From sequence record PP989839.1: a stretch of DNA of 64,000 nucleotides; one strand, given 5' to 3'. The translations under genes were made by a program, and so were the position numbers. This DNA is from Escherichia phage VTCCBPA_322. Below are positions 17,346-64,000 of the stretch, piece by piece (position 1 is the first letter of the stretch; the number at the start of each line of letters is the position of its first letter). Under the pieces are notes generated by a model. It ran no database searches and was not told the origin of the DNA. It saw only the letters and a list, made by a program, of their open reading frames with translations.

Positions 17346-17383
17346 TTCCTATATACGATATAAGTTTGAACAGGAAACATGCT

Positions 17384-20300
17384 ATGTCAACATTTGACCG
17401 TCTGGCAGGTTTCGCAGACAGCATCACTAATGCCAAGCAAGTCGATGTCTCTACTGCAACCTCTCAGAAGCAAGCTGCACAAGGGCAAAGCCCTTTCCAA
17501 TTAACCCCAGAGAATGCTTACAATCTCCAAACTGGTCGTGTAGGTAATCTTGGAATCGGTGCATTCGAACCAGGTTCACTTCAGGCAGATTTCACTCAAG
17601 CCTCTCCATTAGAAATTCTTAATAAATACGGTAATGAGCAAGGTCTACAGATTCTTAATAGCCGAGCTAATGCTGCTGATGTTGTACGTCAGGACTTATC
17701 TAAGCAACGTACTAACGCAGAAGCATTTGGTGATACTCTTTCTGGTGTTGGTCTTGGTGTTGCTAATACCCTTGGGGGCATTGCTGCTCTTGGCACAGGT
17801 CTGGTCAATGATAATGCCGGGGCATCCATTGCTTCCGGGATGGATTGGTTGAATGAAGGTGTACACAATCTACAGTCTGATGCACTGAATGCTACCCGTA
17901 AGGTTGTTCAGAATCAGAACCTGATTTCTGCACAAAAGAACCAGAAACTTTATGAAGAAGACATTAAGAATGGGGAGAGCAGTTTGGTTGCCTCCTTGTC
18001 TCGCATTGGTCGTGACGCTTTTGATTCCGTTGCTAATACACTTGATAATGGTATGGCTGCCACCGATGGACTGAGTGAAGGTGTTGGTTCCCTCTTTACT
18101 GGTGGTCCACTTATCCGTGGTGTATCTGCACTTGGTAAAGTAATGGTAGGTGGTGATAAAGCTATTAAAGGTATTACCTTAGCTGCTGAGTTAGGTTCAC
18201 GCCCTGCACAGGTTGCATTGTCTGCTGGTCGTGTTGCTGCACCTGCTATAGCAATTGGTGGTATGGAAGCTGGTGGTGCATACCAACAGACTGCTTCTGA
18301 AATCATGAAGATGTCCCATCAAGAATTAGCAAGTAAGTCTCCTGTTTATCAACAACATATTGCTGATGGTTTATCCCCTGATGAAGCTCGTCGTCAGACT
18401 GCATCTGAAACAGGTATCGTTGCTGCTGGCTTAACTGCTCCGGTTGCTGCTGCTACTGGTCCACTGGTATCCAAATTTGAACTCAACCCCCTTAAAGTAG
18501 GTTCACTGGCTGGTGCTGGCTCTAACATGCTACGTGAGACTGTAGAAGAAGGTATCCAGTCCGGTACTAGTCAGTTTGCACAGAACAAAGCAATTCAGGG
18601 TAATGTAGATGCTAAGCGTGATTTGCTTAAAGGTGTCGGTGAACAAGCAGGTCTTGGTGCACTTTATGGCTTCGGTAGTGCTGGTGTTGCTCAGGCTCCA
18701 GGTGCAACTGTTAAAGCTGTTGGTGCTTCTGCTGGGCCTGCTTTACGTACTACTCTGGCTGGTGCTTCTCTGGTTGGTAGTGCATTAGCAAAAGCTGCCT
18801 CTCCTATTACTAACATCCTGGTTCAACGTGGGGAAGAAGTTGCTAAGCGTAATGAACAAGCATCTCCTGTATCAGACGCTACAGTTAACGCTGCTGCACA
18901 AGAAGCTACTGCTCAGGCAGAACAAGCACAAGCAACTGTACAGGAAGCAGTAGATGCAATGGATATTTCTCCTGAAGAGAAAGCTGCTGCTACTCAGTAT
19001 GCTGCTGACTTAACTCAGGCAATGAAGTTTGACCCAGTAGAGTTAGAGCAAGCTAATCCAGCAATCCGTGAAGCTGTTTCTGGTTCCACTAACCGTGTAG
19101 AAGCTATTCAGAAGATGGCTGACCTGGTTAATACTGCTGAAGACCCTAACGTTCAAATGGAAGCTGCAATCCAGATGTATGACAACATCATGTCTATGGA
19201 TAGCTTCATTAATCGTGACCCGGGTGCTTTGGCTAATCTGGAACAGGGTTCTCCTGCTGCTAATATTGTTGACCAGTTCTCCGGTCTGATGGCTAACGTA
19301 CAGAATACTCCAAAGGTACTTCGTGCATTCCGTGCCATCCATTCTATGATTCAGGAACAGGCTGAAGCAGGTAAGTTAAAAGCTACTGAAGAAGCTAATC
19401 AAGCCCAAGCAAACAACATTGCTATGGCTGCTGATATGTCTCCAGAAGTATTGGATGCAGATTCAGTGAACATGGTTCTGAAACATGCAAGTGAAGGTAA
19501 GATTACACTGGGTAATCGTCAGCGTGCTGCCTTGCAATCTGCTGCTGCTTTATTACAAGGAGCACGGGAATTTGACGCTAAAGCAGAAGAACTGGGCTTA
19601 CGTCCTCAGGACATTGTTAGTAAACAGATTAAAACCGACGAATCTCGTTCTAATGAAGGTCAGTACTCTGCGTTGCAACATGCTAAACGCATTCGTTCTG
19701 CGTACAACTCTGGTAACTTCGATTTGGCTTCCGCTTATCTCGACGACTTTATGAAGTTCGCCCAGCACATGCAGAATAAGGTCGGAGCGTTGAATGAGCA
19801 TCTGATTTCTGGGAATGCGGATAAGAATAAGTCTGTCCATTATCAGGCTCTTACTCCCTCCCGTGAATGGGTACGTAGTCGTACTGGCCTCGGTGTCAAT
19901 CCGTATGATACCAAGTCGGTTAAGTTTGCCCAGCAAGTAGGACTGGAGGCCAAAACCGTAGCTGATATTGCTAATGCACTTGCTACGGCTTACCCGGAGC
20001 TTAATGTTTCTCATGTGAAGGTTACCCCATTAGATTCACGTCTGGACAAGCCTGCTGCCCAGGTGGTTAAAGAGTTCCGTCAGGGCAATCTTGACGCTGC
20101 TCAATCCCAACAGACCAATGAACCAGTGAATCAGGTTGATAAATCTCCTGCACCTGTGCAAGAGGCCACTACTACTGTACAGCCTAAAGCTAAACTAGTG
20201 GTAGAAAATAAGACTGTTCCTGTTAAGGAGACTAGTTCAAAAGCAGAAGAAGTCTCTACTACCGAATCCGAAAGGGATGCTTATGTGAAAGAAAATACTA

Positions 20301-23300
20301 TTTCACAGGACATCCTCAATAAGAGCGGTGATCGTAGAGAGAGTCCTTGGCTCTTTGCTGATGGTACTGTTGTTGGTTCTAACGGCGATCACATTAGCCT
20401 GTCCGATGTATTTGGTCACGATGGCTATCGTGATATGTCTTTGGATACTGGTGCTGTACGTTCTACTTTCTATAAAGGCAGTGAGCAACCATTCGTATCT
20501 TTGCAACTTTTTGATAATCAGAAGCTAACTACTGAACAATTCAATACTGTTCAATCATTCGTAGAAGCAAACAATGCACTGATTCAGATTGGTGTAGATA
20601 CGTCTGGGCGTAACACCAATAACGTTGAGAAGATAGAAGTATCACTGGCCCAACTGAAAGCAGACTATACCGTTGGTGGTAAACCCCTGTCTGAGATGGA
20701 AACAGTGTTCCCTGTCTATAACAATGACAAGACACCGAACCAGTTCCTGAAAGCATTTACCCTGCCGGAAGAACCTAAGTCTCGCACCATTGGTTCTGAA
20801 TCCCCTTTGACTGATGTTAAGCAAGCACTGTCTTCTGCTGCTCGCTTTGAAGCATTCACTCAAAAAGAAAATAACGCTCTCACAAGTGATGTGATTAAGC
20901 GTTATCAGGACTTAATGGACTTTGGTGAAACTCTGAAGACTACTTTGTCTGACCGTCTGACTAAGTTTCTTGCTAATAAGAATGTTGGTAAACGTTTTGC
21001 AGAAGGTACTGAGGCTAACCGTTGGGTAGGTGGTAAGTTACTTAACATCGTAGAGAAAGATGGGGATACCTTTAAGTTCAATGACCAGTTGTTAGAGACT
21101 GCTGTACTTGCTGGTCTGCAATGGCGACTTACTGCTACACAAAATGCTGCTGTTAAAGATATGAAAGACGTAGCTGCTATTACTGGAGTAGAAGCATCCT
21201 TGTTACCTGAAGGTATCCTGGCTGAATTTGAGAATGCTCAGACTCTGGTTGAAGCTACTAACTCACTGGCTCAAAAGATTGAATCTTACTGGGGTCTGAA
21301 TCGTAATCCTAATGCACCTCTGGGTTATACCAAAGGTATCCCAATGGCAATGGCTACAGAGATTCTGTCTTCTTTCATTGAGATGGGTGAAGTTAAAGAA
21401 TCTATGCTGGATGTGTCTGAGTTTGACCCAGCTTCTAATAAGACTGTTGGTCTGTATACTATTGAGAAACTGGATGATAATGATGCCATTAACAAATTCC
21501 CTACTGCTATTGAGGAAGCTGTCCTCGTAGAACCAGAAGAGAAAATGTACTTTGGTGATGATATTCCTTCCGTGGCTCAAACACAGTTACGTAATCCTGC
21601 TGTTAAGAATACCCCAGAGCAGAAAGCTGCTCTTAAAGCAGAACAGGCTACCGAGTTCCGTGTACACATGCCTATGGTTAACTTCTATGAAGCATTAGGT
21701 CGTGACAACATTCTGGAACTGATGGGTGCTGGTACTCTTAATCCTGAACTGCTGAACGTGAATACTGCTAAATCATTGGAAGGTAAAAACCTGTCCGTGT
21801 CCATGGCATATGATTCCTTGTTTGGTGTAATCAATCAATTACAGGAACAGGAGAATGGTCTGGATACGCCTATTCACTATGGTTACAACATGACCCGTGT
21901 AGGTCGTATGCAGATGCTTGGTAAGAACAACCCACAATCCAGCAAGCTGGTTCGTGAAGCAATTCTGCCAACCTTCTCTACTATTGACTTAAGTAATGAA
22001 AATAGCCAAACGTTCTCTGACTTCCAGTTAGGTCTGGCTCAGGCATTGGGCATCAAGGTTCATAATATGTCCCGTGAAGCTATGTCTGAAAAACTGACCA
22101 AAGCTCTGGAAGGTAATTTGAAACCTGCTGTTGATATGATGGTTGAGTTTGATAAGTCCGGTCACTTACCTGCTGATGCAGTAGATATTCTGAAGACATC
22201 TCTGGGTGGTGATAAATCATTCGTAGCTCTTATGGCTCTTATGGAATATGCCCGTTACCTTAACAGTACTGACCGTGCTAACTTTAATACCCCACTGTAC
22301 GTTGAAGCCGATGGTGTAACCAACGGGCCAATCAATGCAATGGTATTAATGACCGGTGGTAAGTTCACTTCGGATTGGATTAAGAATACTGCTAAAGGTG
22401 GTTTGTTCTTCGGTAAAGCTGGTAAGACTATGAACGAACACCGTTCACAGGATGACAGTGTTGACTTGTATGAAGCATCTACTAATGGTCTGCAACAAGC
22501 ACTAAATGAGTTACGTACTACTTACCGTAATAATGTTCCGGTCATGAACCAGATGAATCATCTTCAGAAGTTAATGGACCTGTTCATTAAAGACTTTAAC
22601 CTGAACGAAGACGGTACTTTGGACCTGAAACGTGGTATCGCTAAAAACCCACTGACTATTACCATCTATGGTTCTGGTGCTCGTGGTATTGCTGGCAAGA
22701 TGGTTAGTGCAATTACTGACACCATCTATGAACGCTTCAGTGATGTTCTGCAAGCTCGTGCTGCTGACCCTAGCATTTCCCCAGCTATGGCAATGTTTGG
22801 TAAGGAGGCTGCGTCTGAGGCTAATGCTCAGGCTATGCTGGATACTTTCCTTACATCTATGGAAGCACTGACTGGTAATGTTCCAGTTATGCGTAAAGGT
22901 CAACTGTCTATTCAACAGGTAGAAGGTGCTCTGACTGGTAAGTTAGACCCACAGAAATTTACTGTATCTGGTAATGCCCTGAAGAACTTACAAGAGAACA
23001 TGCTTCACCTGTTCGTTGAACCAATGCGTACTGGTATCCGTAATACTGTTGGTGAAGGTCTTATGCATTCTACTGAGAACTTGCAGAAGGCTACCCAGAT
23101 TCAGTCTTTGGTTCTGCAAGACATGTTCCAACAAGCAGTACAGGCTAAGCTGGCAGAAAAAGAAAAAGACCCAACATGGAAGAAGGGTGATTTCTTAACA
23201 CAGAAAGAACTTAATGAAATCCAGGAATCATTATCTCCACTGGCTCCAATGATTGAGACTGGTTCACAGACTTTCTACATTGCTGGTAGTGAGAATACTG

Positions 23301-26300
23301 ACGTTGCTAACCAAGTTCTGGCTACCAACTTAGATGATCGTATGCGTGTGCCAATGAGCATCTATGCTCCTTCACAGGCAGGCGTTGCAGGTATTCCATT
23401 TATGACCATTGGTACTGGCGATGGCATGATGATGCAGACCCTTTCTACTATGAAAGGTGCTCCGAAGAATACCCTGAAAATCTTTGATGGTATGAACATT
23501 GGTATCGACAACATCACTGATGCAAGTCGTAAAGCTAACGAGGCTGTATACACTTCCTGGCAGGGTAACCCTATCAAGAATGTCTACGACTCCTTCTCTA
23601 AGTTCATGAAGAATGTAGACTTCAGCAAACTGTCTGATGAAACCAAACAGGCTATCGCTAAATCTGCTCTGGAATATGACCAGCGTGAAGGTGCTACCGA
23701 TGACCTGTTACGTGTTGGTGCTGAACAGATTGAACGTAATCTGCGCAACATTGCTCTGGGTGTGGATATTCGCCACAAAGTAATGAACCAGGTACAGACT
23801 ACTGTTGACCAGATGGCTGCTGTAGGTGCTCCTTATGTGAACAACGGTAAAATCTCTCTGGAAGGTCTGACTGTAGACCAGCAAGTAGCTAAGCTGAACG
23901 AACTGTTTGATGCTGAGTTAAACAAGCGTCGTGATGCAGTACGTGCTGCTAAAGCAGAACCAGTGAAAGAAGTACCAGCAATGGAACAGGTTGGTCGTGT
24001 ACTGAAGTCTGGTGTACGTCTGCTGTCTAATACTGCTATCTCTAAGCTGGCTAAAGAGATGTCTCCGGAACAGCAAGCGGTACTGAAAGAAGTACAGAAA
24101 TCCCTTGCTGCTAAAGACTACAAAGTTGTTTATGGTACTCCTGCTCAATTAGATGCTTATGCTATTGAGAAGAATATTACTCGCCCAGCACCAGAAGATA
24201 TTGAAGCTGCTGAAGCAGGTAATGCATACGGCTGGACTAACTTTGATGATAAGACTATCTACTTAGTTACCCCTTCCTTGGAGACTCTGGTTCATGAATT
24301 GGTACATGCTTCTACTTTCGAATCTGTACTGGCTCATTATGAAGGTACTCCAAATGAAGCAGTCCAAAATATTGAAGACTTAATGAATCAGTTCCGTACT
24401 CTGGATGTTAAGGATGAATCTCCGGCAGTACGCGAAGCATATGCAGATGCTCTTAATACCATTAATGGTCATTTGTCTAATGGCTTCATTGAACCAGCAA
24501 TGGCTAAAGCTGCTGCACTTAACGAGTACATGGCATGGGGTTTAACTAACCGTGAACTAATTAGCAAGCAGAAGAAAACTACTGCACTGAAGACTATGGT
24601 TCAGGCTGTGTATGAAGCAATCAAGCGTCTGGTATTCGGACGTAAGAAAGCTCCCGCTAATGCAGATGATATGTTCTCTGGTTTACTATTTAACTCTGCT
24701 GTAGTTATGCGAGGACAAGCTCCTACTGCTGCTGTAGCCAAGGATACTACTCTGTTCCATAACAAAGCATACGGTGACAATACTCGTCTGGAAGAGCTAG
24801 GGAAAACCTTCGATAAACTGATTACAGACTACATTGGTTCAGAACCAGTACAACAAGTAATTCGTAAGGGTAAATTCTCTGATGCAGTAGTGAATGCAAC
24901 TAAAGTAACCCGTGATGTTCAGGCTCATGGCTTCACTATGAATATGCAGGAACAGCGTCTATTCACTAACATCGTTGCTGCTCTGGCTACTGAAGCTGCC
25001 ATTAGTCCTGCTGCCCTGGCTCGTGCACAGGAATACTATACGCATGTTACTAAGAACCTGACCGTTGAATCGTTCATGGCTGACCCGGATAGTACTAACC
25101 CTGCTGACCGTTACTATGCTCAACAGAAGTTCGATACCATTATGGGTGCTAACAATATTGAGTTTGATGCACAGGGCCGTTCTTCCTTACTGCCTACCTT
25201 TGTTGGTCTGGCAATGGTAAGTGAAGAGGTACGTAAAGTACTGGCAGACATTCCTGTTATGAAAGCAGATAAGCAATCCGGTAATACAGTTGATGCAATG
25301 CTGACTAACATTGGTACTGCTGCAATGGCTAGTCTGAATGCTCGTGTAGCGGGTGATACTAAGGCTACCAATGTACAGGAAGGTATGGATGCACTGGCTC
25401 AGACAATCATGCAGACGAGTCTCAATGCACAGTCCTTCTATGATTCCGTTGCTACTCCTAGTGGTAATGCTATTGACCGTGCTAACCAGTATCTGGTGGA
25501 TTCTATTGATGCATTGTCTACCCGTGCTTTAGAAGGTGCTCGTGAAGTTGCAGCTAATACCAAGAACCCGTTGGTTAAAGGTGCTGCTCATGCTGCACAA
25601 CTAATAGCTGCTATTGCTACAGAGAAGAATGGTGAAATCGTAGCTGAAGGCGTTATGGCTGCAATGAACCAGGGTAAAGTGTGGCAACCTTTCCATGACC
25701 TGGTTAATGACTTAACAGGCCGTACTAAGAGCAATGCTTCTGTATACGATTTGATTAAGGCAGTACGTGCACAGGTACAAGCTGACCGTCAACAGTTCCG
25801 TGAACATTTGCCTACCACTATCGCATCTAAGTTCAGCCGTAAGCTGACTAATGATGAATGGAAAGCAATGCATACTGGTATGGGTAAAACTGACTTAGCT
25901 GTTTTACGTGACACTATGTCTCTGGCTGAAATTCGTGACTTGCTGACTGACCAAAAGATTGTTGACCGTGAAGTGAATAAGCTGGAAGCAGACTTACAGA
26001 AACAAGCTGGTCGTAACTGGCCTCTGATTAGCCGTAAATCTAAGCAACTAGCTCAGTACATGATTAACGGTACAGTTGGTAATAACCTGCTGCGTAATGC
26101 TACAGCAATCTCTCGTATGCTGGGTGAACGTCAGGCTGCACGTTCTACTGTAGATGTAGCTCAACTGGATAAACTGATTACTCTGTATGCACTGGAAGCA
26201 ATGAGTAAGACTGACCGTGAGATGTTATCTTCACTGGCTCAATCAGAAGTTGATGGAATTGATTTTGCTACTTCTTACCTGGTTGGTCAGCGTAAAGATG

Positions 26301-28096
26301 AAATGGCTAAAGCCAAGTCTGACATGCGTGCAACCCTGAACCAGTACAAAGGTTATATCCCAAGTGAGACTAAGCAAGGTGTTAACCTGATTGTTGCTGA
26401 AGACAGTCAATTTGCTGATTTGATTGAGAAGTCTTATGTACGTCTGGGTACTTATCAAGGTAGTTCTGCTAATCGTGGTTCAGCACGTAGCTACTACTTC
26501 GCACCGGTACAGGCACAGGCTCCATTCTCACAGGGTATTCTACAGAACGTTCGTAATACTGCTGGTGGTGTAGACCTTGGTACAGGATTTACGATGGGAA
26601 CCATGGTGGCTGGTCGTATTACTGACAAGCCTTCTGTAGACCGTATCACTAAAGCACTGGCTCGTGGTGAACGAGGTAATGAGCCACTGATGCCTGTATA
26701 TGATGACAAAGGTAATGTAGTTGCTTATGAACAATCTATTGACCCTAACATGCTGAAGCACATTGAGGGTGAGAACCATCTTGCTCGTGCAATCGGTGTA
26801 TGGCGTGGTCGTCAGGTGGAAGAAGCTAAGGCTCAGCGTTTCAACGATATGCTAATTGAGAATCTGCATAGCATGTATGAGAACGACATTAAGATGTCTG
26901 CCTCTAATAAGTCCCAGTACGTTAACCTTCTTGGTTCTAAGCTGGACCCAGTAACTGCTGATGCCCTTAAGCTGATGAACAGTGAAACACGTCAGAAAGC
27001 AGAAAGCCTGTTTGGCGAAGGTGAACTGTGGGTTCGTCGTGACATGCTGAATGATGCACTAGGCTATCGTGCAGCTTCCGTTGGTGATGCCTGGTCTGGT
27101 AATTCTCGTTGGTCCCCGGAAACACTGGATACCTTTAAGAAAGCTATGCTTGGTGTGTTCGGCAACCGTGCCTACAAGTATGTAATGGGTGGTGAGAACC
27201 TGGTTCAGAACTTAGTTAAAGAAGCTAAGACTCTGATTGTAGTTAAATCAGTGGTTGTACCTGCTGTTAACTTCCTGGCTAACCTTTACCAGATGGTTGG
27301 TCGTGGTGTACCCGTTAAGAACATTGCTAAAAGCATTCCACAGAAGACTGCTGAGATTAACCAGTACCTGAAATCTCGTCTGCGTCAGGTAGACGCAGAA
27401 GCAGAATTACGTGCAGCCACTAACCCGAACCAGATTCGTAAACTTAAGGCTGAGATTCAGTCTATTACTGACAGCCATAAGCGTATGAGTATCTGGCCTC
27501 TGTTAGAAGCTGGTGAGTTCTCTTCAATTGCAGATGCTGGTATTGGGCGTGATGATATCCTGATTACTGAGGGTAAACTCCATGAATACATGGATAAACT
27601 GGCTGATAAGTTACCTAAGTCTGTACGCAACGCTGGACGTTATGCACTTATCACCAAAGATACTGCTCTCTTCCAGGGTATCCAGAAGACGGTTGAGTAC
27701 TCTGACTTTATCGCTAAAGCAATCATCTATGATGATTTGACTCAGCGTAAAGGTAAGACTCGTGAAGAAGCACTAGGACGTGTAACGGAGGAGTTCATTA
27801 ACTATGACCGTTTGCCTGGTCGCTTCCGTGGGTATATGGAAAGTGTTGGTTTAATGTGGTTCTACAACTTTAAGATTCGTTCTGCGAAAATTGCAGTATC
27901 CATGATTCGTAACAACCCGGTACATGCAGCTATGGCTATGTTGGCTCCAACTCCTACCATGTTTGGTAACGTTGGTTTACCTATTCAGGACAACATCTTC
28001 AGTATTGCTGCACAAGGTAATCTTGGTTACTCCTGGGGCTTCGGTCAGGGCTTACGTGCCCATAACCTTAACCCTTGGCTCAACCTCACTAACTAA
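17384..28096 (+). CDS. virion-encapsidated giant RNA polymerase (N4 gp50-like vRNAP)
   Basis: 3570-aa ORF (ATG 17384 with AGGAAA RBS; track start 17366 is TTG); central region has T7-like polymerase motifs: DG near PLYVEADGVTNGPINA, motif B-like KNPLTITIYGSGARG, motif C-like KIFDGMNIG; hallmark of N4-like phages. Confidence 0.9.
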   Translation: MSTFDRLAGFADSITNAKQVDVSTATSQKQAAQGQSPFQLTPENAYNLQTGRVGNLGIGAFEPGSLQADFTQASPLEILNKYGNEQGLQILNSRANAADVVRQDLSKQRTNAEAFGDTLSGVGLGVANTLGGIAALGTGLVNDNAGASIASGMDWLNEGVHNLQSDALNATRKVVQNQNLISAQKNQKLYEEDIKNGESSLVASLSRIGRDAFDSVANTLDNGMAATDGLSEGVGSLFTGGPLIRGVSALGKVMVGGDKAIKGITLAAELGSRPAQVALSAGRVAAPAIAIGGMEAGGAYQQTASEIMKMSHQELASKSPVYQQHIADGLSPDEARRQTASETGIVAAGLTAPVAAATGPLVSKFELNPLKVGSLAGAGSNMLRETVEEGIQSGTSQFAQNKAIQGNVDAKRDLLKGVGEQAGLGALYGFGSAGVAQAPGATVKAVGASAGPALRTTLAGASLVGSALAKAASPITNILVQRGEEVAKRNEQASPVSDATVNAAAQEATAQAEQAQATVQEAVDAMDISPEEKAAATQYAADLTQAMKFDPVELEQANPAIREAVSGSTNRVEAIQKMADLVNTAEDPNVQMEAAIQMYDNIMSMDSFINRDPGALANLEQGSPAANIVDQFSGLMANVQNTPKVLRAFRAIHSMIQEQAEAGKLKATEEANQAQANNIAMAADMSPEVLDADSVNMVLKHASEGKITLGNRQRAALQSAAALLQGAREFDAKAEELGLRPQDIVSKQIKTDESRSNEGQYSALQHAKRIRSAYNSGNFDLASAYLDDFMKFAQHMQNKVGALNEHLISGNADKNKSVHYQALTPSREWVRSRTGLGVNPYDTKSVKFAQQVGLEAKTVADIANALATAYPELNVSHVKVTPLDSRLDKPAAQVVKEFRQGNLDAAQSQQTNEPVNQVDKSPAPVQEATTTVQPKAKLVVENKTVPVKETSSKAEEVSTTESERDAYVKENTISQDILNKSGDRRESPWLFADGTVVGSNGDHISLSDVFGHDGYRDMSLDTGAVRSTFYKGSEQPFVSLQLFDNQKLTTEQFNTVQSFVEANNALIQIGVDTSGRNTNNVEKIEVSLAQLKADYTVGGKPLSEMETVFPVYNNDKTPNQFLKAFTLPEEPKSRTIGSESPLTDVKQALSSAARFEAFTQKENNALTSDVIKRYQDLMDFGETLKTTLSDRLTKFLANKNVGKRFAEGTEANRWVGGKLLNIVEKDGDTFKFNDQLLETAVLAGLQWRLTATQNAAVKDMKDVAAITGVEASLLPEGILAEFENAQTLVEATNSLAQKIESYWGLNRNPNAPLGYTKGIPMAMATEILSSFIEMGEVKESMLDVSEFDPASNKTVGLYTIEKLDDNDAINKFPTAIEEAVLVEPEEKMYFGDDIPSVAQTQLRNPAVKNTPEQKAALKAEQATEFRVHMPMVNFYEALGRDNILELMGAGTLNPELLNVNTAKSLEGKNLSVSMAYDSLFGVINQLQEQENGLDTPIHYGYNMTRVGRMQMLGKNNPQSSKLVREAILPTFSTIDLSNENSQTFSDFQLGLAQALGIKVHNMSREAMSEKLTKALEGNLKPAVDMMVEFDKSGHLPADAVDILKTSLGGDKSFVALMALMEYARYLNSTDRANFNTPLYVEADGVTNGPINAMVLMTGGKFTSDWIKNTAKGGLFFGKAGKTMNEHRSQDDSVDLYEASTNGLQQALNELRTTYRNNVPVMNQMNHLQKLMDLFIKDFNLNEDGTLDLKRGIAKNPLTITIYGSGARGIAGKMVSAITDTIYERFSDVLQARAADPSISPAMAMFGKEAASEANAQAMLDTFLTSMEALTGNVPVMRKGQLSIQQVEGALTGKLDPQKFTVSGNALKNLQENMLHLFVEPMRTGIRNTVGEGLMHSTENLQKATQIQSLVLQDMFQQAVQAKLAEKEKDPTWKKGDFLTQKELNEIQESLSPLAPMIETGSQTFYIAGSENTDVANQVLATNLDDRMRVPMSIYAPSQAGVAGIPFMTIGTGDGMMMQTLSTMKGAPKNTLKIFDGMNIGIDNITDASRKANEAVYTSWQGNPIKNVYDSFSKFMKNVDFSKLSDETKQAIAKSALEYDQREGATDDLLRVGAEQIERNLRNIALGVDIRHKVMNQVQTTVDQMAAVGAPYVNNGKISLEGLTVDQQVAKLNELFDAELNKRRDAVRAAKAEPVKEVPAMEQVGRVLKSGVRLLSNTAISKLAKEMSPEQQAVLKEVQKSLAAKDYKVVYGTPAQLDAYAIEKNITRPAPEDIEAAEAGNAYGWTNFDDKTIYLVTPSLETLVHELVHASTFESVLAHYEGTPNEAVQNIEDLMNQFRTLDVKDESPAVREAYADALNTINGHLSNGFIEPAMAKAAALNEYMAWGLTNRELISKQKKTTALKTMVQAVYEAIKRLVFGRKKAPANADDMFSGLLFNSAVVMRGQAPTAAVAKDTTLFHNKAYGDNTRLEELGKTFDKLITDYIGSEPVQQVIRKGKFSDAVVNATKVTRDVQAHGFTMNMQEQRLFTNIVAALATEAAISPAALARAQEYYTHVTKNLTVESFMADPDSTNPADRYYAQQKFDTIMGANNIEFDAQGRSSLLPTFVGLAMVSEEVRKVLADIPVMKADKQSGNTVDAMLTNIGTAAMASLNARVAGDTKATNVQEGMDALAQTIMQTSLNAQSFYDSVATPSGNAIDRANQYLVDSIDALSTRALEGAREVAANTKNPLVKGAAHAAQLIAAIATEKNGEIVAEGVMAAMNQGKVWQPFHDLVNDLTGRTKSNASVYDLIKAVRAQVQADRQQFREHLPTTIASKFSRKLTNDEWKAMHTGMGKTDLAVLRDTMSLAEIRDLLTDQKIVDREVNKLEADLQKQAGRNWPLISRKSKQLAQYMINGTVGNNLLRNATAISRMLGERQAARSTVDVAQLDKLITLYALEAMSKTDREMLSSLAQSEVDGIDFATSYLVGQRKDEMAKAKSDMRATLNQYKGYIPSETKQGVNLIVAEDSQFADLIEKSYVRLGTYQGSSANRGSARSYYFAPVQAQAPFSQGILQNVRNTAGGVDLGTGFTMGTMVAGRITDKPSVDRITKALARGERGNEPLMPVYDDKGNVVAYEQSIDPNMLKHIEGENHLARAIGVWRGRQVEEAKAQRFNDMLIENLHSMYENDIKMSASNKSQYVNLLGSKLDPVTADALKLMNSETRQKAESLFGEGELWVRRDMLNDALGYRAASVGDAWSGNSRWSPETLDTFKKAMLGVFGNRAYKYVMGGENLVQNLVKEAKTLIVVKSVVVPAVNFLANLYQMVGRGVPVKNIAKSIPQKTAEINQYLKSRLRQVDAEAELRAATNPNQIRKLKAEIQSITDSHKRMSIWPLLEAGEFSSIADAGIGRDDILITEGKLHEYMDKLADKLPKSVRNAGRYALITKDTALFQGIQKTVEYSDFIAKAIIYDDLTQRKGKTREEALGRVTEEFINYDRLPGRFRGYMESVGLMWFYNFKIRSAKIAVSMIRNNPVHAAMAMLAPTPTMFGNVGLPIQDNIFSIAAQGNLGYSWGFGQGLRAHNLNPWLNLTN

Positions 28097-57326: not shown

Positions 57327-57566
57327 TTAGCCAGCATTAAATGATGACAATACTATTCCTGGTTCCACACCTTCTGTGGCAATACCCAGGTACTCGACAT
57401 GTACTTTATCTGGGGAAGAACACCAAGCGGAGTATGTACTCCATTCTCCGTCTGGGCTAATAAGACGAGCCTCTTCTGCGGTTTTAGCTGCTACCACAGC
57501 AGAATCATATGTATCCCAATCCGTATTTTCTTCTTGGCTAATAAGCCATAGTTTTAATCTACTCAT
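57327..57566 (-). CDS. small hypothetical protein
   Basis: 79 aa between the two RNAPII subunit genes. Confidence 0.4.
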   Translation of the reverse strand: MSRLKLWLISQEENTDWDTYDSAVVAAKTAEEARLISPDGEWSTYSAWCSSPDKVHVEYLGIATEGVEPGIVLSSFNAG

Positions 57567-58377
57567 CGTTTACTAACTCCTTATCAGCGAACTCCAGTAC
57601 AGCTTTGTTGTAACTGGTTCCCTGATAGTTAATGTGATAGCCCTGAGCATAAGTACGCCCACGTTTGTCATATTTGTGACCCAGTGAGAAGTTATTACCC
57701 TCTTTGGTCACTAACTCCATTACTTCCTTAGCGGTACGGCTGTACTTCTCAAAGGCTTTAACACGTTTCTCGTATTCCTGTCGGGTTTCACCCTCTTTGG
57801 GCTTATCCATATTAGGGCGAGAGTCTTTTACATAATTAGCAACATCCCAGTTGATACTTAGACGTTGATTATTCATACGGTTAATATGGTCAAGACAGAC
57901 ATCCATCTCATGATGGTTCTTCTTGAGGATGATACTGCCCCTGCTCTCGTAGTAACCTGTATCACGGTTACACAGAACAGGCTTAGGAGCACTTACGATA
58001 GGTAATGGATACTGGAATGCTTCCAGTTCCATCTGAACATCTTCACTAATCTCATAGATAACACCGAACTTGTCGATGGTAGGGTCATAGTTGAAGCAGT
58101 CATTCTCTGCCATCTTATACAGACAGTCAGCGATGTACTGAGCGTCATCTGAGTGGCTCATGAGAGAGCCAATCATAGTCTGGATGTCGGCTCGTTTATG
58201 TAGGGCAATCTGCACCATTGCATCAATGAGCAGCTTATAATCAATTTCCAAATAGGCAGCGAATGCCCTAAAGTCAATTTCTTCGGAGTCCTCAAATTCC
58301 TTCCTCATGCGAGGGAGTAATTGATTTTTGTTGAAAAGAATTTCGAGTTGCTTCTGATGTTCAATAGATGAGTACAT
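57559..58377 (-). CDS. phage RNA polymerase II, small subunit (N4 gp15-like)
   Basis: 272 aa immediately upstream of catalytic subunit gene; assignment by synteny and size. Confidence 0.6.
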   Translation of the reverse strand: MYSSIEHQKQLEILFNKNQLLPRMRKEFEDSEEIDFRAFAAYLEIDYKLLIDAMVQIALHKRADIQTMIGSLMSHSDDAQYIADCLYKMAENDCFNYDPTIDKFGVIYEISEDVQMELEAFQYPLPIVSAPKPVLCNRDTGYYESRGSIILKKNHHEMDVCLDHINRMNNQRLSINWDVANYVKDSRPNMDKPKEGETRQEYEKRVKAFEKYSRTAKEVMELVTKEGNNFSLGHKYDKRGRTYAQGYHINYQGTSYNKAVLEFADKELVNDE

Positions 58378-58637: not shown

Positions 58638-58659
58638 TCCTTAAGCTGCGGAGCAGCTT
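58638..58659 (-). promoter_or_regulatory. conserved hairpin motif TCCTTAA-GCT-GCGGAGC-AGC; candidate virion-RNAP early promoter upstream of RNAPII operon
   Basis: 7-bp stem AAGCTGC/GCAGCTT with 3-nt purine loop GGA on plus (template) strand; shares core with sites at 63123 and 63897. Confidence 0.45.
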
Positions 58660-59801: not shown

Positions 59802-59802
59802 A

Positions 59803-60126: not shown

Positions 60127-60377
60127 ACCTTTCTTAATGTCCCATAAATGTTATTATCGACAATACTCAAATCACAAAAACCAATCTCTTCTTGTCTCCC
60201 AGAGGATACCCAGATATTGTTTTCTGTTAGCTTAGGCTTCTTAGAGAAGCCTATTAAGGAGGTATTAGCACTCTTATATTGTCGAGTATATAGAGCTATA
60301 TACTTAACCCAGTGAGGCACTTGGATAGTATGTCCCATATATTCCACAGTCTTACCTGTAGGGTATGTAATAATCAT
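60123..60377 (-). CDS. small hypothetical protein
   Basis: 84 aa; ATGA overlap. Confidence 0.45.
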   Translation of the reverse strand: MIITYPTGKTVEYMGHTIQVPHWVKYIALYTRQYKSANTSLIGFSKKPKLTENNIWVSSGRQEEIGFCDLSIVDNNIYGTLRKV

Positions 60378-60686: not shown

Positions 60687-60724
60687 AAGATTAGTGTCAG
60701 TGAAGTCACGTCCACCAGCTACAA

Positions 60725-60952
60725 TCAGTTTCGTTTTTGATATCCTTGCATATAGTTAATACGGCGAATACGTTGAGTAGATGCCTTAACAGCCATCTGT
60801 TGATTTTCTTGTTTATGCTGATTAGTCAGTATCTTATCCCATTCTTTCTGGTTCCTTTGTTTCTGTAATATACGACTACAACGCTTATGATTGGCAACTC
60901 CACGTCCTTTTTTACAGACTGGGCAAATACCATAATCGTTTGAGTACATCAT
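60725..60952 (-). CDS. small zinc-ribbon protein
   Basis: CPVCKK...HKRC pattern. Confidence 0.4.
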   Translation of the reverse strand: MMYSNDYGICPVCKKGRGVANHKRCSRILQKQRNQKEWDKILTNQHKQENQQMAVKASTQRIRRINYMQGYQKRN

Positions 60953-61257
60953 TGGCTTAAAGCCTCCATTAATATTTTACGAATAACGTTAACATCAGAT
61001 TCAGTACCAATTAAACCAACAGGTTTACCTGTACTATCTGTTACAAAACCAGCAATCCTTTCCATTTCTGCTGTAATTAGTTTGTCACCACTAATAAGAC
61101 GATTACGAAGGTAAGCCTCATAAGCTACCTCTATATCTTCTACTGTGGTTCTTTCATTACGAGCGAATGGATTACTTAATGGGAAGGGTAAATGTACCCG
61201 TATATTCCTGTCAGCTACTTTAGCTTGGTGAGGAAGTATACATACTATTTCATTCAA
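60949..61257 (-). CDS. hypothetical protein, possible DUF4326-like paralogue
   Basis: 102 aa; LSNPFARNERTTVEDIEVAYEAYL resembles N-terminal motif of 59193-59573 product. Confidence 0.45.
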   Translation of the reverse strand: MNEIVCILPHQAKVADRNIRVHLPFPLSNPFARNERTTVEDIEVAYEAYLRNRLISGDKLITAEMERIAGFVTDSTGKPVGLIGTESDVNVIRKILMEALSQ

Positions 61258-61298
61258 GGTTATTTCTCCTATTTAAATACATATCTAACTATTCAAGA

Positions 61299-61332
61299 AT
61301 AAAAAATAGGAGCCTCCTAATGGAGGACTCCT
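61299..61332 (-). terminator. intrinsic terminator
   Basis: minus strand AGGAGTCCTCC-ATTA-GGAGGCTCCT followed by ATTTTTTATTCTT. Confidence 0.65.
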
Positions 61333-61334
61333 TA

Positions 61335-61523
61335 TTATTTAATACACGGATGATTGAAAGTTACGATGATATCGTCTTTAATCTTCATATTAGTAACTGG
61401 ATTGAGTTGACCAGGTGCACCAACATAAGCAACAGTGTCGTTACCCTTACTTAATGCTGACTTATTACGTTTACGCATACGAACAACATCTTCTTTGGTT
61501 CCCATGATTAATGACTTACGCAT
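61335..61523 (-). CDS. small basic hypothetical protein
   Basis: ATG at 61523 with GGAG RBS (track start 61568 lacks RBS). Confidence 0.4.
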   Translation of the reverse strand: MRKSLIMGTKEDVVRMRKRNKSALSKGNDTVAYVGAPGQLNPVTNMKIKDDIIVTFNHPCIK

Positions 61524-61890
61524 GTTTAGTACTCCACATAAAGTTAAAAGGTTTATTGTTACGTACAATTCTTACAACCATTTGATAGCCATTGAGCTGC
61601 ACAACACCATAGTGTCGTTTCTGTACACCAGTGTGATATCTACGAAAGATACATTCTTCAATGGCATCTTCTATGTTAGTGAATATCACTGGTTCTCCCG
61701 TAATATCGACAACTAAGCACAGGTGAATAACGTTTACACATCGCCACCTGGCTCATCTCTGCCACGAGCATTACTTGCTACGGAAGTGAACATACCAATA
61801 ACTATGCCTACTGCTAATAACCACGGGAATGCAGCTACCAGCAGTATCATTAATAAAGTACACAGAATCTCTGCCAGCAGCTTCATAGCA

Positions 61891-62295
61891 TTATCCTTCC
61901 AGTTGTTTAGGCAACATTGCCATTAGTTGTTTAGCCATAGACTCACACTCATCGGTGCAATATTGCTCATCTCGCCATACACCCTCTGAGTACATGTGCA
62001 AGCCTTCCAACGGAGTACCCTTGTACTTCTCTGGGCATTTCATGAGGTCACCATAATGAGCACAATCAAAACCAATAACAATTTTGTCCTCTAATTGAGG
62101 AAGTGCATCCTGATAAGTAACACCACCATGAACTGAGATGCATACTTCTGAGTCATAATTCATGAAGTCTTTGTCTACTAAGTCAGCAGGTAATGCTACG
62201 TAACCACAATGGTGAGAACCATCATTCACTAACAGGATTACAGCAGGTAAGACAGCTTCAGTAGTCCAGCTTTTTACGATTTTATGAGTAGTCAT
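61891..62295 (-). CDS. hypothetical protein
   Basis: 134 aa; conserved-looking His/Cys positions (SHHCGY, GFDCAH). Confidence 0.5.
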   Translation of the reverse strand: MTTHKIVKSWTTEAVLPAVILLVNDGSHHCGYVALPADLVDKDFMNYDSEVCISVHGGVTYQDALPQLEDKIVIGFDCAHYGDLMKCPEKYKGTPLEGLHMYSEGVWRDEQYCTDECESMAKQLMAMLPKQLEG

Positions 62296-62296
62296 C

Positions 62297-62488
62297 TTAT
62301 TTATTTCCTTTGTGAAGTTTACGGATTTGTTTACGAGTAGGTTTAGCTACAAAGAAGTGGTCATAATGCTGACCATTCTTGTCTTCTACAGATACCTGCC
62401 AACGAGCATTAAGTGACATCTTGCCACCATAACACTGTACCATCTTAATCAGCTTCTGAGAGTTATAACGGTTACATACTGTACGCAT
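62297..62488 (-). CDS. small hypothetical protein
   Basis: 63 aa. Confidence 0.4.
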   Translation of the reverse strand: MRTVCNRYNSQKLIKMVQCYGGKMSLNARWQVSVEDKNGQHYDHFFVAKPTRKQIRKLHKGNK

Positions 62489-62592
62489 AATGGTTACTCC
62501 TTCATCTAATATAAATCTATATCTATCTGGTTACTGTTTCAGTACCCTTCGTCTAAAGATACTCAAAAAGTAGAAATAGCTTATCGTCTAGT

Positions 62593-62624
62593 TAAAAATA
62601 AAAGACTCCCCAAAGGGAGTCTTA
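62593..62624 (-). terminator. intrinsic terminator
   Basis: minus strand AAGACTCCC-TTTG-GGGAGTCTT followed by TTATTTTTAAC. Confidence 0.7.
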
Positions 62625-62631
62625 TGGTTGA

Positions 62632-63114
62632 TTAGAAAGTCAGTTTACGAGCATATTTATTCTCGTCTGCTGGGATGTCAGCAGCCTCTGCTTTCACACG
62701 GCGAAGTTGAACTTGCAGGTTAATGATACCTTCTTCACCTGGTTCCAGGTTCTGAGCATATTCGATTAACTGTTCCAGTAAGTCGTTCTGTGCACAACGC
62801 ATAGCACGGAAGTCAGCATTGCTGCTATTAGTAGGCAGCGGTTCCTGAGTATCCAGTGGAATACCTGTAGGCAGTGAGATGAATTTCTCATCATCAGAAC
62901 CTTCATTAGCTACATAACCAATGTTCAGCCAGAACTGAGCTTTTGGTTTATCAGCTTTAGCAGTAGAAGTAGCAGCAGCGTTAGATTGACCGAAAGTGAA
63001 TTTTTGAATAGACATTTTGTACTCTCCAGATAAATGATTGTTTGATTTATGGGTTTGTCCGTCGGTGACTAAACCCAAGAAAAGACTTAAGATTTCAATG
63101 ATTAGTGGATGCAT
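62632..63114 (-). CDS. acidic hypothetical early protein
   Basis: ATG at 63114 lies about 9 nt downstream of candidate promoter hairpin; alternative start at 63015 has GGAGAG RBS. Confidence 0.45.
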
Positions 63115-63122
63115 TTAAATCA

Positions 63123-63144
63123 TCCATAAGACGCGGAGCGTCTT
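63123..63144 (-). promoter_or_regulatory. conserved hairpin motif TCCATAA-GAC-GCGGAGC-GTC; candidate virion-RNAP early promoter
   Basis: 7-bp stem AAGACGC/GCGTCTT with GGA loop on plus strand; same core as 58638 and 63897. Confidence 0.45.
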
Positions 63145-63149
63145 GGTTT

Positions 63150-63449
63150 TTAAGACAAACGTTTAAGCAATTCTGCCTTAGCAGATTTGTAGTCAGAACT
63201 ATCTTGTCTTACTGCATCTTCGAAGCGAGCCAGTAGTTCTTCCTTATCTGGTTCTCCTTCACAGGATTCCCATTGCCATACATAACCAGTTAGTGGAACT
63301 AGTTCTCCTTCCACAAAGTAAGGATTGTTGTCAGAATCTCTAACAGTAGACTCTTCGGTAAGACGGATACGTTTCCCTTCTAATTCTCCTACGATAATTG
63401 TTCCAACAGGAACATCAACAGAACCTTTGATACAACGGAATTTAGCCAT
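63150..63449 (-). CDS. hypothetical early protein
   Basis: 99 aa. Confidence 0.5.
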   Translation of the reverse strand: MAKFRCIKGSVDVPVGTIIVGELEGKRIRLTEESTVRDSDNNPYFVEGELVPLTGYVWQWESCEGEPDKEELLARFEDAVRQDSSDYKSAKAELLKRLS

Positions 63450-63499
63450 TATCTATCTCCAAAGTAGATAGTTATCTACTTTTGACTATCTATCTAATG

Positions 63500-63530
63500 T
63501 TTATAAAAGGAGACTCCGAAGAGCCTCCTA
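63500..63530 (-). terminator. intrinsic terminator
   Basis: minus strand AGGAGGCTC-TTCG-GAGTCTCCT followed by TTTATAAAC. Confidence 0.6.
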
Positions 63531-63536
63531 TGTGAC

Positions 63537-63860
63537 TTAGTCTTTAGTCAGGATGTCAATTACTTTTGAATATTCTGCGTTATAGATACGAGCGTTCTCA
63601 GAATCCTTACAGAATTCCTCAATACTTTTCTTACGCAGAGTCTCAGTCATAGCTGTTTCCTCTGCCAGTTTATTAACGAATGTATGCATTTCTAATTTAG
63701 TACGAATGGCTTGTTTCTCTGCCATAGTACTTACATATGAATTAAGCATACCTACTGCTTTAGTTGCTGTACCGAATGTATCTGCAACAGTAGTAGCAGC
63801 TGAGTTAACAGTACCAAGTAAAGTTCCTGCGGTCATACGTACAGTAGCTTGAGTAGTCAT
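63537..63860 (-). CDS. hypothetical first early protein
   Basis: ATG at 63860 with GGAG RBS; 107 aa. Confidence 0.5.
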   Translation of the reverse strand: MTTQATVRMTAGTLLGTVNSAATTVADTFGTATKAVGMLNSYVSTMAEKQAIRTKLEMHTFVNKLAEETAMTETLRKKSIEEFCKDSENARIYNAEYSKVIDILTKD

Positions 63861-63896
63861 GATGATAGCTCCAATAGTTGATGATAGGACGACATG

Positions 63897-63916
63897 TCCA
63901 TAACATGCGGAGCATG
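63897..63916 (-). promoter_or_regulatory. conserved hairpin motif TCCATAA-CAT-GCGGAGC-ATG; candidate virion-RNAP early promoter for leftmost early gene
   Basis: 5-bp stem CATGC/GCATG with GGA loop on plus strand, about 40 nt upstream of start codon at 63860. Confidence 0.45.
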
Positions 63917-64000
63917 TGTAACGTGTAAGGTGGGGTAGGGTAGTGGCTACACCGTCAACATACCGGGGGGCTAGTTGAGTGTAAGGGTGTAGCCCCAGCC

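What the first reader, a model, noticed from the sequence alone, without database searches (positions are those of the whole stretch)
63123..63144. Second copy of the TCCATAA-NNN-GCGGAGC hairpin motif
TCCATAA-GAC-GCGGAGC-GTC forms a 7-bp stem with GGA loop, 6 nt after the stop of the upstream early gene and 9 nt before ATG 63114. The identical 7-mer and loop with a different stem sequence (compensatory changes) argue for a recognised structure. On the plus strand it is followed by GGTTTTT, so an antisense terminator function is an alternative.
Basis: seen in the sequence. Interest (0 to 1): 0.6.

Follow-up and report, generated by a model that had tools for sequence, protein, structure and literature searches.

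The report
N4-type virion-polymerase hairpin promoter (P2)
The hairpin is the DNA promoter that the injected virion RNA polymerase of an N4-like coliphage most likely uses to start transcribing an early gene; it matches the well-studied phage N4 promoter P2, so it is real but ordinary.

Summary
Window 63123-63144 (+) reads TCCATAAGACGCGGAGCGTCTT, a 7-bp stem (AAGACGC/GCGTCTT) with a GGA loop.

The window is an N4-like podophage (Gamaleyavirus, Schitoviridae). Its genes here lie on the minus strand, so the + strand is the template. The hairpin meets every published sequence determinant of a phage N4 virion RNA polymerase (vRNAP) early promoter:
- the GC-rich heptamer GCGGAGC centred at -11;
- -11G, -10G, -12A and -8G, with a C:G pair closing the loop;
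- +1C eleven nucleotides from the loop centre.

It sits 20-23 nt upstream of the gp2 homologue, exactly where N4 P2 sits. The window holds exactly three such hairpins (0.09 expected). They are positional counterparts of N4 P1, P2 and P3.

Across relatives the stem changes by compensating substitutions while the heptamer, loop and +1/+2 CC stay fixed. The window's own vRNAP keeps all base-contacting residues of N4 vRNAP. The identical 22-mer is already published as a putative promoter of Klebsiella phage KP8.

Predicted start: 63125 on the minus strand, RNA GGAUGAUUUAAAUG.... Initiation itself was not tested. The plus-strand terminator reading is formally possible but unsupported. Verdict: a real, functional-looking element of an already known kind, and of low interest.

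The parts
63123..63144 (+). P2-type vRNAP early promoter, read on the template strand (positions +3 to -19). Stem arms 63128-63134 and 63138-63144, loop GGA 63135-63137 (-10G, -11G, -12A), heptamer GCGGAGC 63133-63139, -8G at 63133, +1C at 63125.
   Evidence: Determinants are taken from PMC4496689. Comparison with N4 P2. Covariation.
63125..63125 (-). Predicted transcription start (+1). The RNA would begin 5'-GGAUGAUUUAAAUG, giving an 11-nt leader before the gp2 ATG at 63114.
   Evidence: Inferred from the N4 rule that +1 lies 8 nt downstream of -8G and 11 nt from the loop centre. GG at +1/+2 is invariant in 16 orthologues and present in nearly all of 49 distinct hairpin contexts.
62632..63114 (-). 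gp2 homologue (160 aa). In N4, gp2 is the single-stranded-DNA-binding cofactor that recruits RNAPII. This is the gene driven by the promoter.
   Evidence: 68% identity to N4 gp2 over the full length. Function in N4 from PMC4496689.
62592..62623 (-). Terminator-like hairpin with a T run directly after the gp2 stop codon; likely end of the P2 transcription unit.
   Evidence: A terminator is annotated at the same place in PhAPEC7.
63897..63917 (+). P1-type promoter copy (TCCATAACATGCGGAGCATGT): 6-bp stem, loop 63909-63911, predicted +1 at 63899 (minus strand). It lies upstream of the gp1 homologue (63860..63537).
58638..58659 (+). P3-type promoter copy (TCCTTAAGCTGCGGAGCAGCTT): same stem as N4 P3, loop 58650-58652, predicted +1 at 58640 (minus strand). 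It lies upstream of a 77-aa ORF and RNAPII subunit A (58377..57559).
17366..28096 (+). Virion RNA polymerase gene (3576-aa ORF), the enzyme expected to recognise the hairpin. The real start is probably the ATG at 17384.
   Evidence: full-length match to N4 vRNAP structures; 72% identity over mini-vRNAP; K114, R119, W129, K849, K850, D901 and R904 conserved; K267 is N.
63505..63528 (-). Terminator-like hairpin GGAGGCTCTTCGGAGTCTCC followed by TTTT, after gp1. Nearly the same sequence follows N4 gp1. It helps explain why a separate promoter is needed downstream.
   Evidence: One search compared.
63107..63125 (-). Inverted repeat at the very 5' end of the predicted P2 transcript (GGAUG ... CAUCC), with the gp2 AUG inside it.
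   Evidence: Suggestive only.

Best explanation
The hairpin is the template-strand form of an early promoter for the phage's injected virion RNA polymerase. It is the orthologue of phage N4 promoter P2.

Proposed mechanism, following N4:
1. The genome end (the window's right end) enters the cell together with vRNAP.
2. Host DNA gyrase supercoils the DNA, and the inverted repeat AAGACGC/GCGTCTT extrudes as a cruciform.
3. The template-strand (window +) hairpin is capped by the very stable d(GCGGAGC) mini-hairpin, with a sheared -10G:-12A pair. It survives E. coli SSB, which melts the non-template hairpin.
[quoted passage not shown] Its beta-intercalating hairpin opens the two bottom A:T pairs.
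5. The single-stranded AATA (-4 to -1) acts as a ruler, and synthesis starts with GTP opposite the C at 63125.
6. The transcript (GGAUGAUUUAAAUG...) encodes the gp2 homologue and probably ends at the terminator at 62623-62602.

Shown here: the sequence determinants, the position, the conservation and covariation, and the conserved contact residues of the polymerase. Inferred from N4: extrusion, SSB dependence and actual initiation.
For: 1. The window is an N4-like Gamaleyavirus. It carries a 3576-aa vRNAP ORF that matches N4 vRNAP structures end to end.
2. All published N4 determinants are present at the right spacing: a GC-rich heptamer centred at -11 and flanked by inverted repeats, -11A/G, -10G, -8G, +1C, the loop-closing G:C pair and the 3' A of the loop (PMC4496689; sequence).
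3. N4 P2 reads AAGAAGC TCC GCTTCTT ttGGATG ... ATG(gp2). The window reads AAGACGC TCC GCGTCTT atGGATG ... ATG(gp2 homologue). The other two copies correspond to N4 P1 and P3, and the P3 stem is identical.
4. Only three sites in 64 kb satisfy the rule. All are on the template strand of the early region, against 0.09 expected.
5. In 16 loci chosen only because they encode gp2 homologues, the hairpin sits 20-23 nt upstream of the ATG. 92% of cells are paired, against 24-55% for slid partners. Three stem pairs change on both sides, and 0 of 500 shuffles reach the covariation score. The heptamer and GGAT at +1 to +4 are invariant.
6. An IMG/VR scan for TCCATAANNNGCGGAGC with no stem requirement gave 97 matches. 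In 22 of them the NNN is followed by its reverse complement, against 1.5 expected. 19 of those 22 lie on contigs of about 70-77 kb; the other three lie on 2.9, 23 and 35 kb contigs, two of which also carry a gp2 homologue. Five different triplets occur.
7. The base- and phosphate-contacting residues of N4 mini-vRNAP (K114, R119, W129, K849, K850, D901, R904) are all conserved in the window's vRNAP.
8. The identical 22-mer AAGACGCTCCGCGTCTTATGGA is listed as putative promoter P2 of Klebsiella phage KP8 (PMC6950046).
9. Hairpin early promoters of this type were confirmed by TSS mapping in the N4-like phage LUZ7 (PMC9163698).
Against: There is no transcript 5'-end or in vitro transcription data for this phage or any Gamaleyavirus in the material searched. 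Records of relatives do not annotate the element.

One N4 residue of the beta-intercalating hairpin (K267) is N here.

The + strand sequence also fits a generic intrinsic-terminator pattern.

The comparative sequences are related to one another, so the shuffle statistics overstate independence.
Confidence: 0.93

Rival explanations
1. The hairpin is an intrinsic (rho-independent) terminator for plus-strand transcription, that is, antisense to the early genes. This could be its only role or a second role alongside the promoter.
For: The consensus scan lists 63127-63145 (+) as terminator-like: 8 pairs, with tail GTTTTTAAGA. As + strand RNA the region folds to -10.3 kcal/mol. An A-rich run lies just upstream of the hairpin on the sense strand in about 12 of 16 orthologues, and about half read AAAACC immediately before the stem.
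Against: The other two copies in the window have no T run on the + strand (TAACTCC, GTAACG). N4 P2 has CTCTTTAAAG, and several orthologues have GTTACC or GTTGTC. So the T run is not a property of the class.

Part of the A run is the stop codon of the upstream gene. The same hairpin with its flank also occurs in front of a different gene in KP8, which suggests shared descent of a promoter cassette.

Only short + strand ORFs that overlap the minus-strand genes lie upstream. A + strand transcript here would run off the genome end about 860 nt later. The strict conservation of -11G, -10G, -8G and +1C has no meaning for a terminator.
Confidence: 0.04
2. The element acts as an RNA hairpin in minus-strand read-through transcripts from P1. 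It would be, for example, an RNase processing site or a translational operator or stabiliser in front of gp2.
For: The minus-strand RNA would also fold: stem AAGACGC/GCGUCUU as part of a -14.6 kcal/mol structure. It lies 8 nt before a start codon.
Against: A terminator lies between P1 and this site. The conserved bases are exactly those contacted by vRNAP on the opposite (template) strand. The loop is always GGA on the template strand, matching the stable DNA mini-hairpin GCGNAGC (PMC13037366). A UCC RNA triloop has no known special property (own knowledge). No Rfam family matches. The fixed 11-nt distance to a conserved CC on the template strand is explained by initiation, not by RNA folding.
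Confidence: 0.02
3. A chance inverted repeat with no function.
For: GCGGAGC alone is not over-represented: 4 found against 2.1 expected.
Against: Three rule-satisfying hairpins are found against 0.09 expected. All are on one strand in the early region. They are positionally conserved with covariation.
Confidence: 0.01

Closest known systems
Bacteriophage N4 early promoter P2, the vRNAP hairpin promoter used in the mini-vRNAP crystal structures (e.g. 3C3L) and the 2026 cryo-EM initiation complex
   Same: - Position: directly upstream of gp2, about 11 nt from +1 to the ATG.
- Stem length: 7 bp.
- Heptamer GCGGAGC and GGA loop.
- -8G, and +1/+2 CC on the template strand.
- Initial transcript GGAUGA.
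- Same polymerase family, with all base-contact residues conserved.
   Different: The stem differs at one pair: AAGACGC/GCGTCTT against AAGAAGC/GCTTCTT, a compensating change. The -1 to -4 spacer is AATA (read -4 to -1) rather than AAAA. A 99-aa ORF is inserted between the gp1 terminator and the promoter. A T run follows the hairpin on the template strand. vRNAP K267 is N. There is no experimental data for this phage.
Putative promoter P2 of Klebsiella phage KP8 (PMC6950046, Table 1)
   Same: Identical 22-nt sequence AAGACGCTCCGCGTCTTATGGA, and the same upstream flank TTAAAACC.
   Different: In KP8 it precedes a different small gene (ORF4). The KP8 gp2 homologue has its own hairpin (GGGCTGCTCCGCAGCC). 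It is also only a prediction.
Early hairpin promoters of Pseudomonas phage LUZ7, mapped by ONT-cappable-seq
   Same: Template-strand hairpin with a 3-nt loop, initiation with G, used by an injected vRNAP.
   Different: Shorter stems (at least 4 bp), TSS 13-14 nt from the hairpin centre, a different sequence and a more diverged polymerase.
Extraordinarily stable DNA mini-hairpins d(GCGNAGC)
   Same: The heptamer GCGGAGC fits GCGNAGC. The review names the N4 promoter as a natural example.
   Different: This is a structural motif, not a functional family. Here it is extended by 4-5 further base pairs and embedded in a promoter.

Membership tests
N4-type vRNAP early hairpin promoter | Inverted repeat able to form a 5-7 bp stem with a 3-nt loop on the template strand | tested here: met
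   7-bp stem and GGA loop on the + strand. Genes lie on the minus strand.
N4-type vRNAP early hairpin promoter | GC-rich heptamer centred at -11 with a purine at -11, -10G, -12A and a C:G closing pair | tested here: met
   GCGGAGC at 63133-63139. Requirements quoted from PMC4496689. Invariant in 16 orthologues.
N4-type vRNAP early hairpin promoter | -8G in the stem, contacted through the major groove | tested here: met
   G at 63133. Invariant in A1 (pair 34-40).
N4-type vRNAP early hairpin promoter | +1C on the template strand, 8 nt downstream of -8 | tested here: met
   C at 63125, followed by C at 63124. CC is at this distance in nearly all of 49 distinct hairpin contexts.
N4-type vRNAP early hairpin promoter | Stem bases free to vary provided pairing is kept | tested here: met
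   Three stem pairs change on both sides, 92% of cells are paired, and 0 of 500 shuffles reach the score. 22 of 97 pattern hits have a complementary triplet against 1.5 expected.
N4-type vRNAP early hairpin promoter | Located in the early region near the genome's left end, oriented with the early genes, about three per genome | tested here: met
   Three sites at 58.6-63.9 kb, all on the template strand. The window's right end aligns by eye with N4 nt 1-100. The flanking genes are gp1, gp2 and RNAPII-A orthologues.
N4-type vRNAP early hairpin promoter | Genome encodes a vRNAP with the promoter-recognition residues | tested here: met
   K114, R119, W129, D901, R904, K849 and K850 are conserved. 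K267 is N.
N4-type vRNAP early hairpin promoter | Rifampicin-resistant initiation at +1 by vRNAP in vivo and on single-stranded DNA in vitro | not testable with these tools
   Needs Cappable-seq or 5'-RACE and in vitro transcription. No such data were found for Gamaleyavirus.
N4-type vRNAP early hairpin promoter | Gyrase-driven extrusion at physiological supercoiling, and activation by E. coli SSB | not testable with these tools
   Known for N4 only.
Intrinsic (rho-independent) terminator on the + strand | GC-rich stem-loop directly followed by a T run, at the end of a transcription unit on that strand | tested here: inconclusive
   The stem and T run are present. No + strand transcription unit ends here. 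The T run is absent from the two paralogous copies and from N4 P2.

The most novel reading that the evidence does not exclude
The P2 unit may carry a second conserved structure. The first 19 nt of the predicted transcript (GGAUG AUUUAAAUG CAUCC, 63125-63107) form a 5'-terminal hairpin that encloses the gp2 start codon.

Comparable 5'-terminal inverted repeats start at +1 in P1- and P2-type promoters of N4, the G7C group and more distant schitoviruses, with some compensating changes:
- GGAUG/CAUCC against GGAUUC/GAAUCC;
- GGACA/UGUCC against GGGUA/UGCCC.

If this is functional, it could protect the triphosphate end, tune gp2 translation, or help peel the nascent RNA off the single-stranded template. 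I found no description of it in the papers read here. I could not check the older N4 literature.
Probability: 0.35. Interest if true: 0.35.

Novelty: already known. Interest (0 to 1): 0.12.

Why it matters
The result places the three early transcription starts of this phage at 63899, 63125 and 58640 on the minus strand. That improves annotation, because records of related phages do not mark these sites.

It also shows that the recognition code worked out for N4 P2 carries over unchanged to the Gamaleyavirus group. The conserved parts are the heptamer, the loop, -8G, the +1 spacing and the polymerase contact residues.

It does not open a new question. Hairpin promoters for N4-type virion polymerases have been studied genetically, biochemically and structurally for decades, and the identical sequence has been published as a putative promoter in phage KP8.

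Tried and rejected
- The fourth GCGGAGC at 49831 has no flanking complementarity, so it is a chance match.
- Rfam scan of 62400-64000 at E up to 1 gave only three sub-threshold chance hits, none at the hairpin.
- Sigma-70 promoter scan found nothing at the hairpin. Promoter-like sites are depleted in the region, 7 found against 20.7 expected.
- I looked for promoter annotation in related GenBank records (PhAPEC7, SP5M). Only terminators and CDS are annotated.
- I tried to read the primary N4 promoter papers (PMC2639713, PMC1855362, PMC317147). None is held. The determinants therefore come from the 2015 review and the 2026 cryo-EM paper.
- The hairpin set was selected for a stem of at least 5 bp, so it is circular for covariation. 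I used it only for flank and +1 conservation. The covariation test used loci selected by the gp2 protein.
- The Wilcoxon test on 5'-terminal folding uses related sequences, so I do not treat it as a probability.

Full report
**The observation**

Window 63123-63144 (+) reads TCCATAAGACGCGGAGCGTCTT. AAGACGC (63128-63134) pairs with GCGTCTT (63138-63144) around the loop GGA (63135-63137). Folded as single-stranded DNA, both strands give this hairpin at about -7 kcal/mol, with z of -2.2 and -2.5.

The shared identical 7-mer is therefore GCGGAGC, and the 5' flank differs by one base. A third copy, which this finding does not mention, lies at 63897-63917: TCCATAACATGCGGAGCATGT. A fourth GCGGAGC at 49831 has no stem.

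The degenerate 22-mer matches twice, against 0.00 expected. A rule-based scan (GRA triloop, -9C, -8G, stem of at least 4 bp, both strands) finds exactly these three sites in 64 kb. All three are on the + strand and all have C eleven nucleotides 5' of the loop centre. Simulations scanned at stem of at least 5 bp give 0.09 hits.

**The genome**

The last 2.5 kb of the window is 94% identical to Gamaleyavirus (G7C-like) N4-related coliphages of the family Schitoviridae. The window carries a 3576-aa ORF (17366-28096, +) that matches the solved structures of phage N4 virion RNA polymerase from end to end.

Credible genes between 32 and 64 kb lie on the minus strand. The + strand is therefore the template strand at all three hairpins.

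**Comparison with N4**

On the N4 sense strand the three early promoters read as follows:

| Promoter | Sequence | Position |
|---|---|---|
| P1 | GTTGC TTC GCAAC ttatGGAC | upstream of gp1 |
| P2 | AAGAAGC TCC GCTTCTT ttGGATG aagta ATG | ATG is the gp2 start |
| P3 | AAGCTGC TCC GCAGCTT ttGGTAA | upstream of gp15 |

The window's sense strand at the finding reads AAGACGC TCC GCGTCTT atGGATG atttaa ATG. The ORF that follows is 68% identical to N4 gp2 over its full length.

The 63897 copy precedes the gp1 orthologue, which is 67% identical to N4 gp1. The 58638 copy has the same stem as N4 P3. It precedes a 77-aa ORF and the orthologue of RNAPII subunit A, which is 66% identical to its N4 counterpart.

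The three hairpins are therefore positional orthologues of N4 P1, P2 and P3. The finding is P2.

**Published determinants**

The 2015 review of the N4 polymerases (PMC4496689) gives these requirements:
- Conservation from -17 to +1, including a GC-rich heptamer centred at -11 and flanked by inverted repeats.
- The loop-closing G:C pair and the 5' G and 3' A of the loop are needed for extrusion and stability.
- vRNAP specifically recognises -11A/G, -10G, -8G and +1C.
- Stem bases outside the conserved ones may vary if pairing is kept.
- Transcription starts 8 nt downstream of -8.

The 2026 cryo-EM paper uses a P2 oligonucleotide with ...CCAAAAGAAGCGGAGCTTC....

Mapping this onto the window gives -8G at 63133, -9C at 63134, -10G at 63135, -11G at 63136, -12A at 63137 and +1C at 63125. 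Every determinant is met. The predicted RNA begins GGAUGAUUUAAAUG, with the gp2 AUG at 63114. In N4 it begins GGAUGAAGUAAUG.

GCGGAGC is also an instance of the extraordinarily stable DNA mini-hairpin GCGNAGC. A 2026 review of that motif names the N4 promoter as a natural example (PMC13037366).

**Comparative evidence**

Two tests did not pre-select for a stem.

1. An exact scan of IMG/VR for TCCATAANNNGCGGAGC gave 97 matches. In 22 of them the next three bases are the reverse complement of NNN, against 1.5 expected. 19 of the 22 lie on contigs of about 70-77 kb; the remaining three lie on shorter contigs (2.9, 23 and 35 kb), two of which also carry a gp2 homologue. Five different triplets occur: GAC, CAT, GTT, GAT and GGC.
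2. Loci were fetched only because they encode a gp2 homologue. Every close relative has a TCC-loop hairpin 20-23 nt upstream of the gp2 ATG, with stems GACGC, AGCTGC, GGCTGC, AGAAGC and others.

An alignment of 16 such upstream regions gives these pair counts:
- 92% of cells are paired, against 24-55% when partners are slid.
- Three of seven pairs change on both sides.
- 0 of 500 shuffles reach the covariation score.
- The heptamer, the loop and GGAT at +1 to +4 are invariant.

These sequences are related to one another, so the shuffle count is not a probability. The slid-partner control and the variety of stems are the stronger arguments.

**The polymerase**

The N4 mini-vRNAP numbering was first checked against the N4 gp50 sequence and then mapped onto the window's protein. 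Over that domain the two proteins are 72% identical.

| N4 mini-vRNAP residue | Window residue | Status |
|---|---|---|
| K114 | K1205 | conserved |
| R119 | R1210 | conserved |
| W129 | W1220 | conserved |
| K849/K850 | K1939/K1940 | conserved |
| D901 | D1991 | conserved |
| R904 | R1994 | conserved |
| K267 (beta-intercalating hairpin) | N1358 | changed |

The enzyme that should read the hairpin is therefore present and has the same reading head.

**Earlier descriptions**

Hairpin early promoters have been predicted in several N4-like phages: LUZ7, LIT1 and PEV2 (PMC3715699) and Pectobacterium CB1-like phages (PMC6027278). In LUZ7 they were confirmed by primary-transcript mapping (PMC9163698).

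Table 1 of the Klebsiella phage KP8 paper lists AAGACGCTCCGCGTCTTATGGA as putative promoter P2 (PMC6950046). That sequence is identical to the window's hairpin. In KP8 it precedes another small gene, and the KP8 gp2 homologue has its own hairpin (L104). GenBank records of close relatives annotate no promoter here.

**Rival explanations**

*Plus-strand terminator.* The consensus scan does flag 63127-63145 (+), with tail GTTTTTAAGA. Against this:
- The other two copies have no T run on the + strand, and neither does N4 P2.
- Several orthologues lack it.
- Part of the A run on the sense strand is the upstream stop codon.
- No + strand transcription unit ends here.
- A terminator does not explain the fixed -11G, -10G, -8G and +1C.

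I cannot exclude a minor secondary role.

*RNA element in read-through transcripts.* This is unlikely for three reasons. A terminator-like hairpin almost identical to the one that follows N4 gp1 lies between P1 and this site. The conserved bases are those read on the opposite strand. Rfam finds nothing.

*Chance.* This is excluded.

**Mechanism**

By analogy with N4, the steps are:
1. Gyrase-driven extrusion of the cruciform.
2. SSB melts the non-template hairpin, while the GGA-capped template hairpin persists.
3. vRNAP binds through the -11 recognition element, the specificity loop and the intercalating hairpin.
4. The two bottom A:T pairs open.
5. Synthesis starts with GTP opposite C63125.
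6. The gp2 homologue is transcribed to the terminator at 62623-62602.

The sequence-level steps are shown here. Extrusion, SSB dependence and initiation are inferred from N4.

**Side observations**

- *5'-terminal hairpin.* The predicted transcript starts with an inverted repeat, GGAUG...CAUCC, that encloses the gp2 AUG. Four pairs are invariant. The fifth is G:C in 13 loci, U:A in two and unpaired in one. P1- and P2-type promoters of N4, the G7C group and more distant relatives show similar 5'-terminal hairpins, whereas P3-type promoters do not. This is suggestive only.
- *gp2 N-terminus.* The PHROG profile for gp2 covers only residues 34-160, and distant homologues lack the N-terminal 33 residues. 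In the N4/G7C group the frame stays open through in-frame indels and the segment is hydrophobic. This fits the membrane association reported for N4 gp2. It supports the upstream ATG, and hence the 11-nt leader.

**Verdict**

The finding is a real, non-random and very probably functional element. It is an orthologue of one of the best-characterised phage promoters. I rate it already known, with interest 0.12.

Noticed in passing
window 63107-63125 (minus strand); also 63887-63899: The predicted P2 transcript begins with an inverted repeat, GGAUG AUUUAAAUG CAUCC, that encloses the gp2 AUG. The P1 transcript begins GGAC AUGUC GUCC. N4 and more distant relatives have equivalent 5'-terminal hairpins with a few compensating changes, while P3-type promoters lack them. 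Function is unknown; possibilities are mRNA stability, translation control, or RNA displacement from the template.
   Followed up: partly
window 63897-63917 (+): A third promoter copy (the P1 orthologue) lies about 100 nt from the window's right end. That end aligns by eye with nt 1-100 of the N4 genome, so the window ends at or very near the phage's left terminus.
   Followed up: partly
window 63150-63449 (minus strand): A 99-aa ORF (PHROG 24403, unknown function) sits between the gp1 terminator and P2, where N4 has no gene. It has no promoter hairpin of its own. Several relatives (L097, L101, L102, L104/KP8, L110) carry an extra hairpin promoter about 285 nt upstream, in front of their inserted gene. 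This suggests promoter-plus-small-gene cassettes are shuffled among these phages.
   Followed up: partly
window 63016-63114 (minus strand): The first 33 codons of the gp2 homologue are absent from the PHROG profile and from distant homologues. An internal ATG at 63016 has a strong GGAGAG Shine-Dalgarno sequence. The extension is hydrophobic and kept in frame through indels in 16 relatives, but it lacks a third-codon-position excess of variation. Two gp2 isoforms are possible.
   Followed up: partly
window 17366-17384 (+): The mechanical ORF for vRNAP starts at TTG 17366. N4 vRNAP residue 1 aligns with residue 7, so the real start is probably the ATG at 17384.
   Followed up: no
vRNAP residue 1358 (window about 21435-21437): K267 of N4 mini-vRNAP, one of the two lysines of the beta-intercalating hairpin that opens the base of the promoter stem, is asparagine here. 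All other promoter contacts are conserved.
   Followed up: no
loci L115, L116, L118, L119-L121, L123 (upstream of distant gp2 homologues): More distant schitovirus contigs have a GC-rich triloop hairpin at the equivalent place. The template-strand loops are GTA, GCA or GAA, so the central base is not always a purine. This hints at diverged polymerase specificity.
   Followed up: no
window 57000-64000: Sigma-70-like promoter matches are depleted in the early region: 7 found against 20.7 +/- 3.7 in shuffles. Terminator-like hairpins are enriched: 20 found against 4.2.
   Followed up: no
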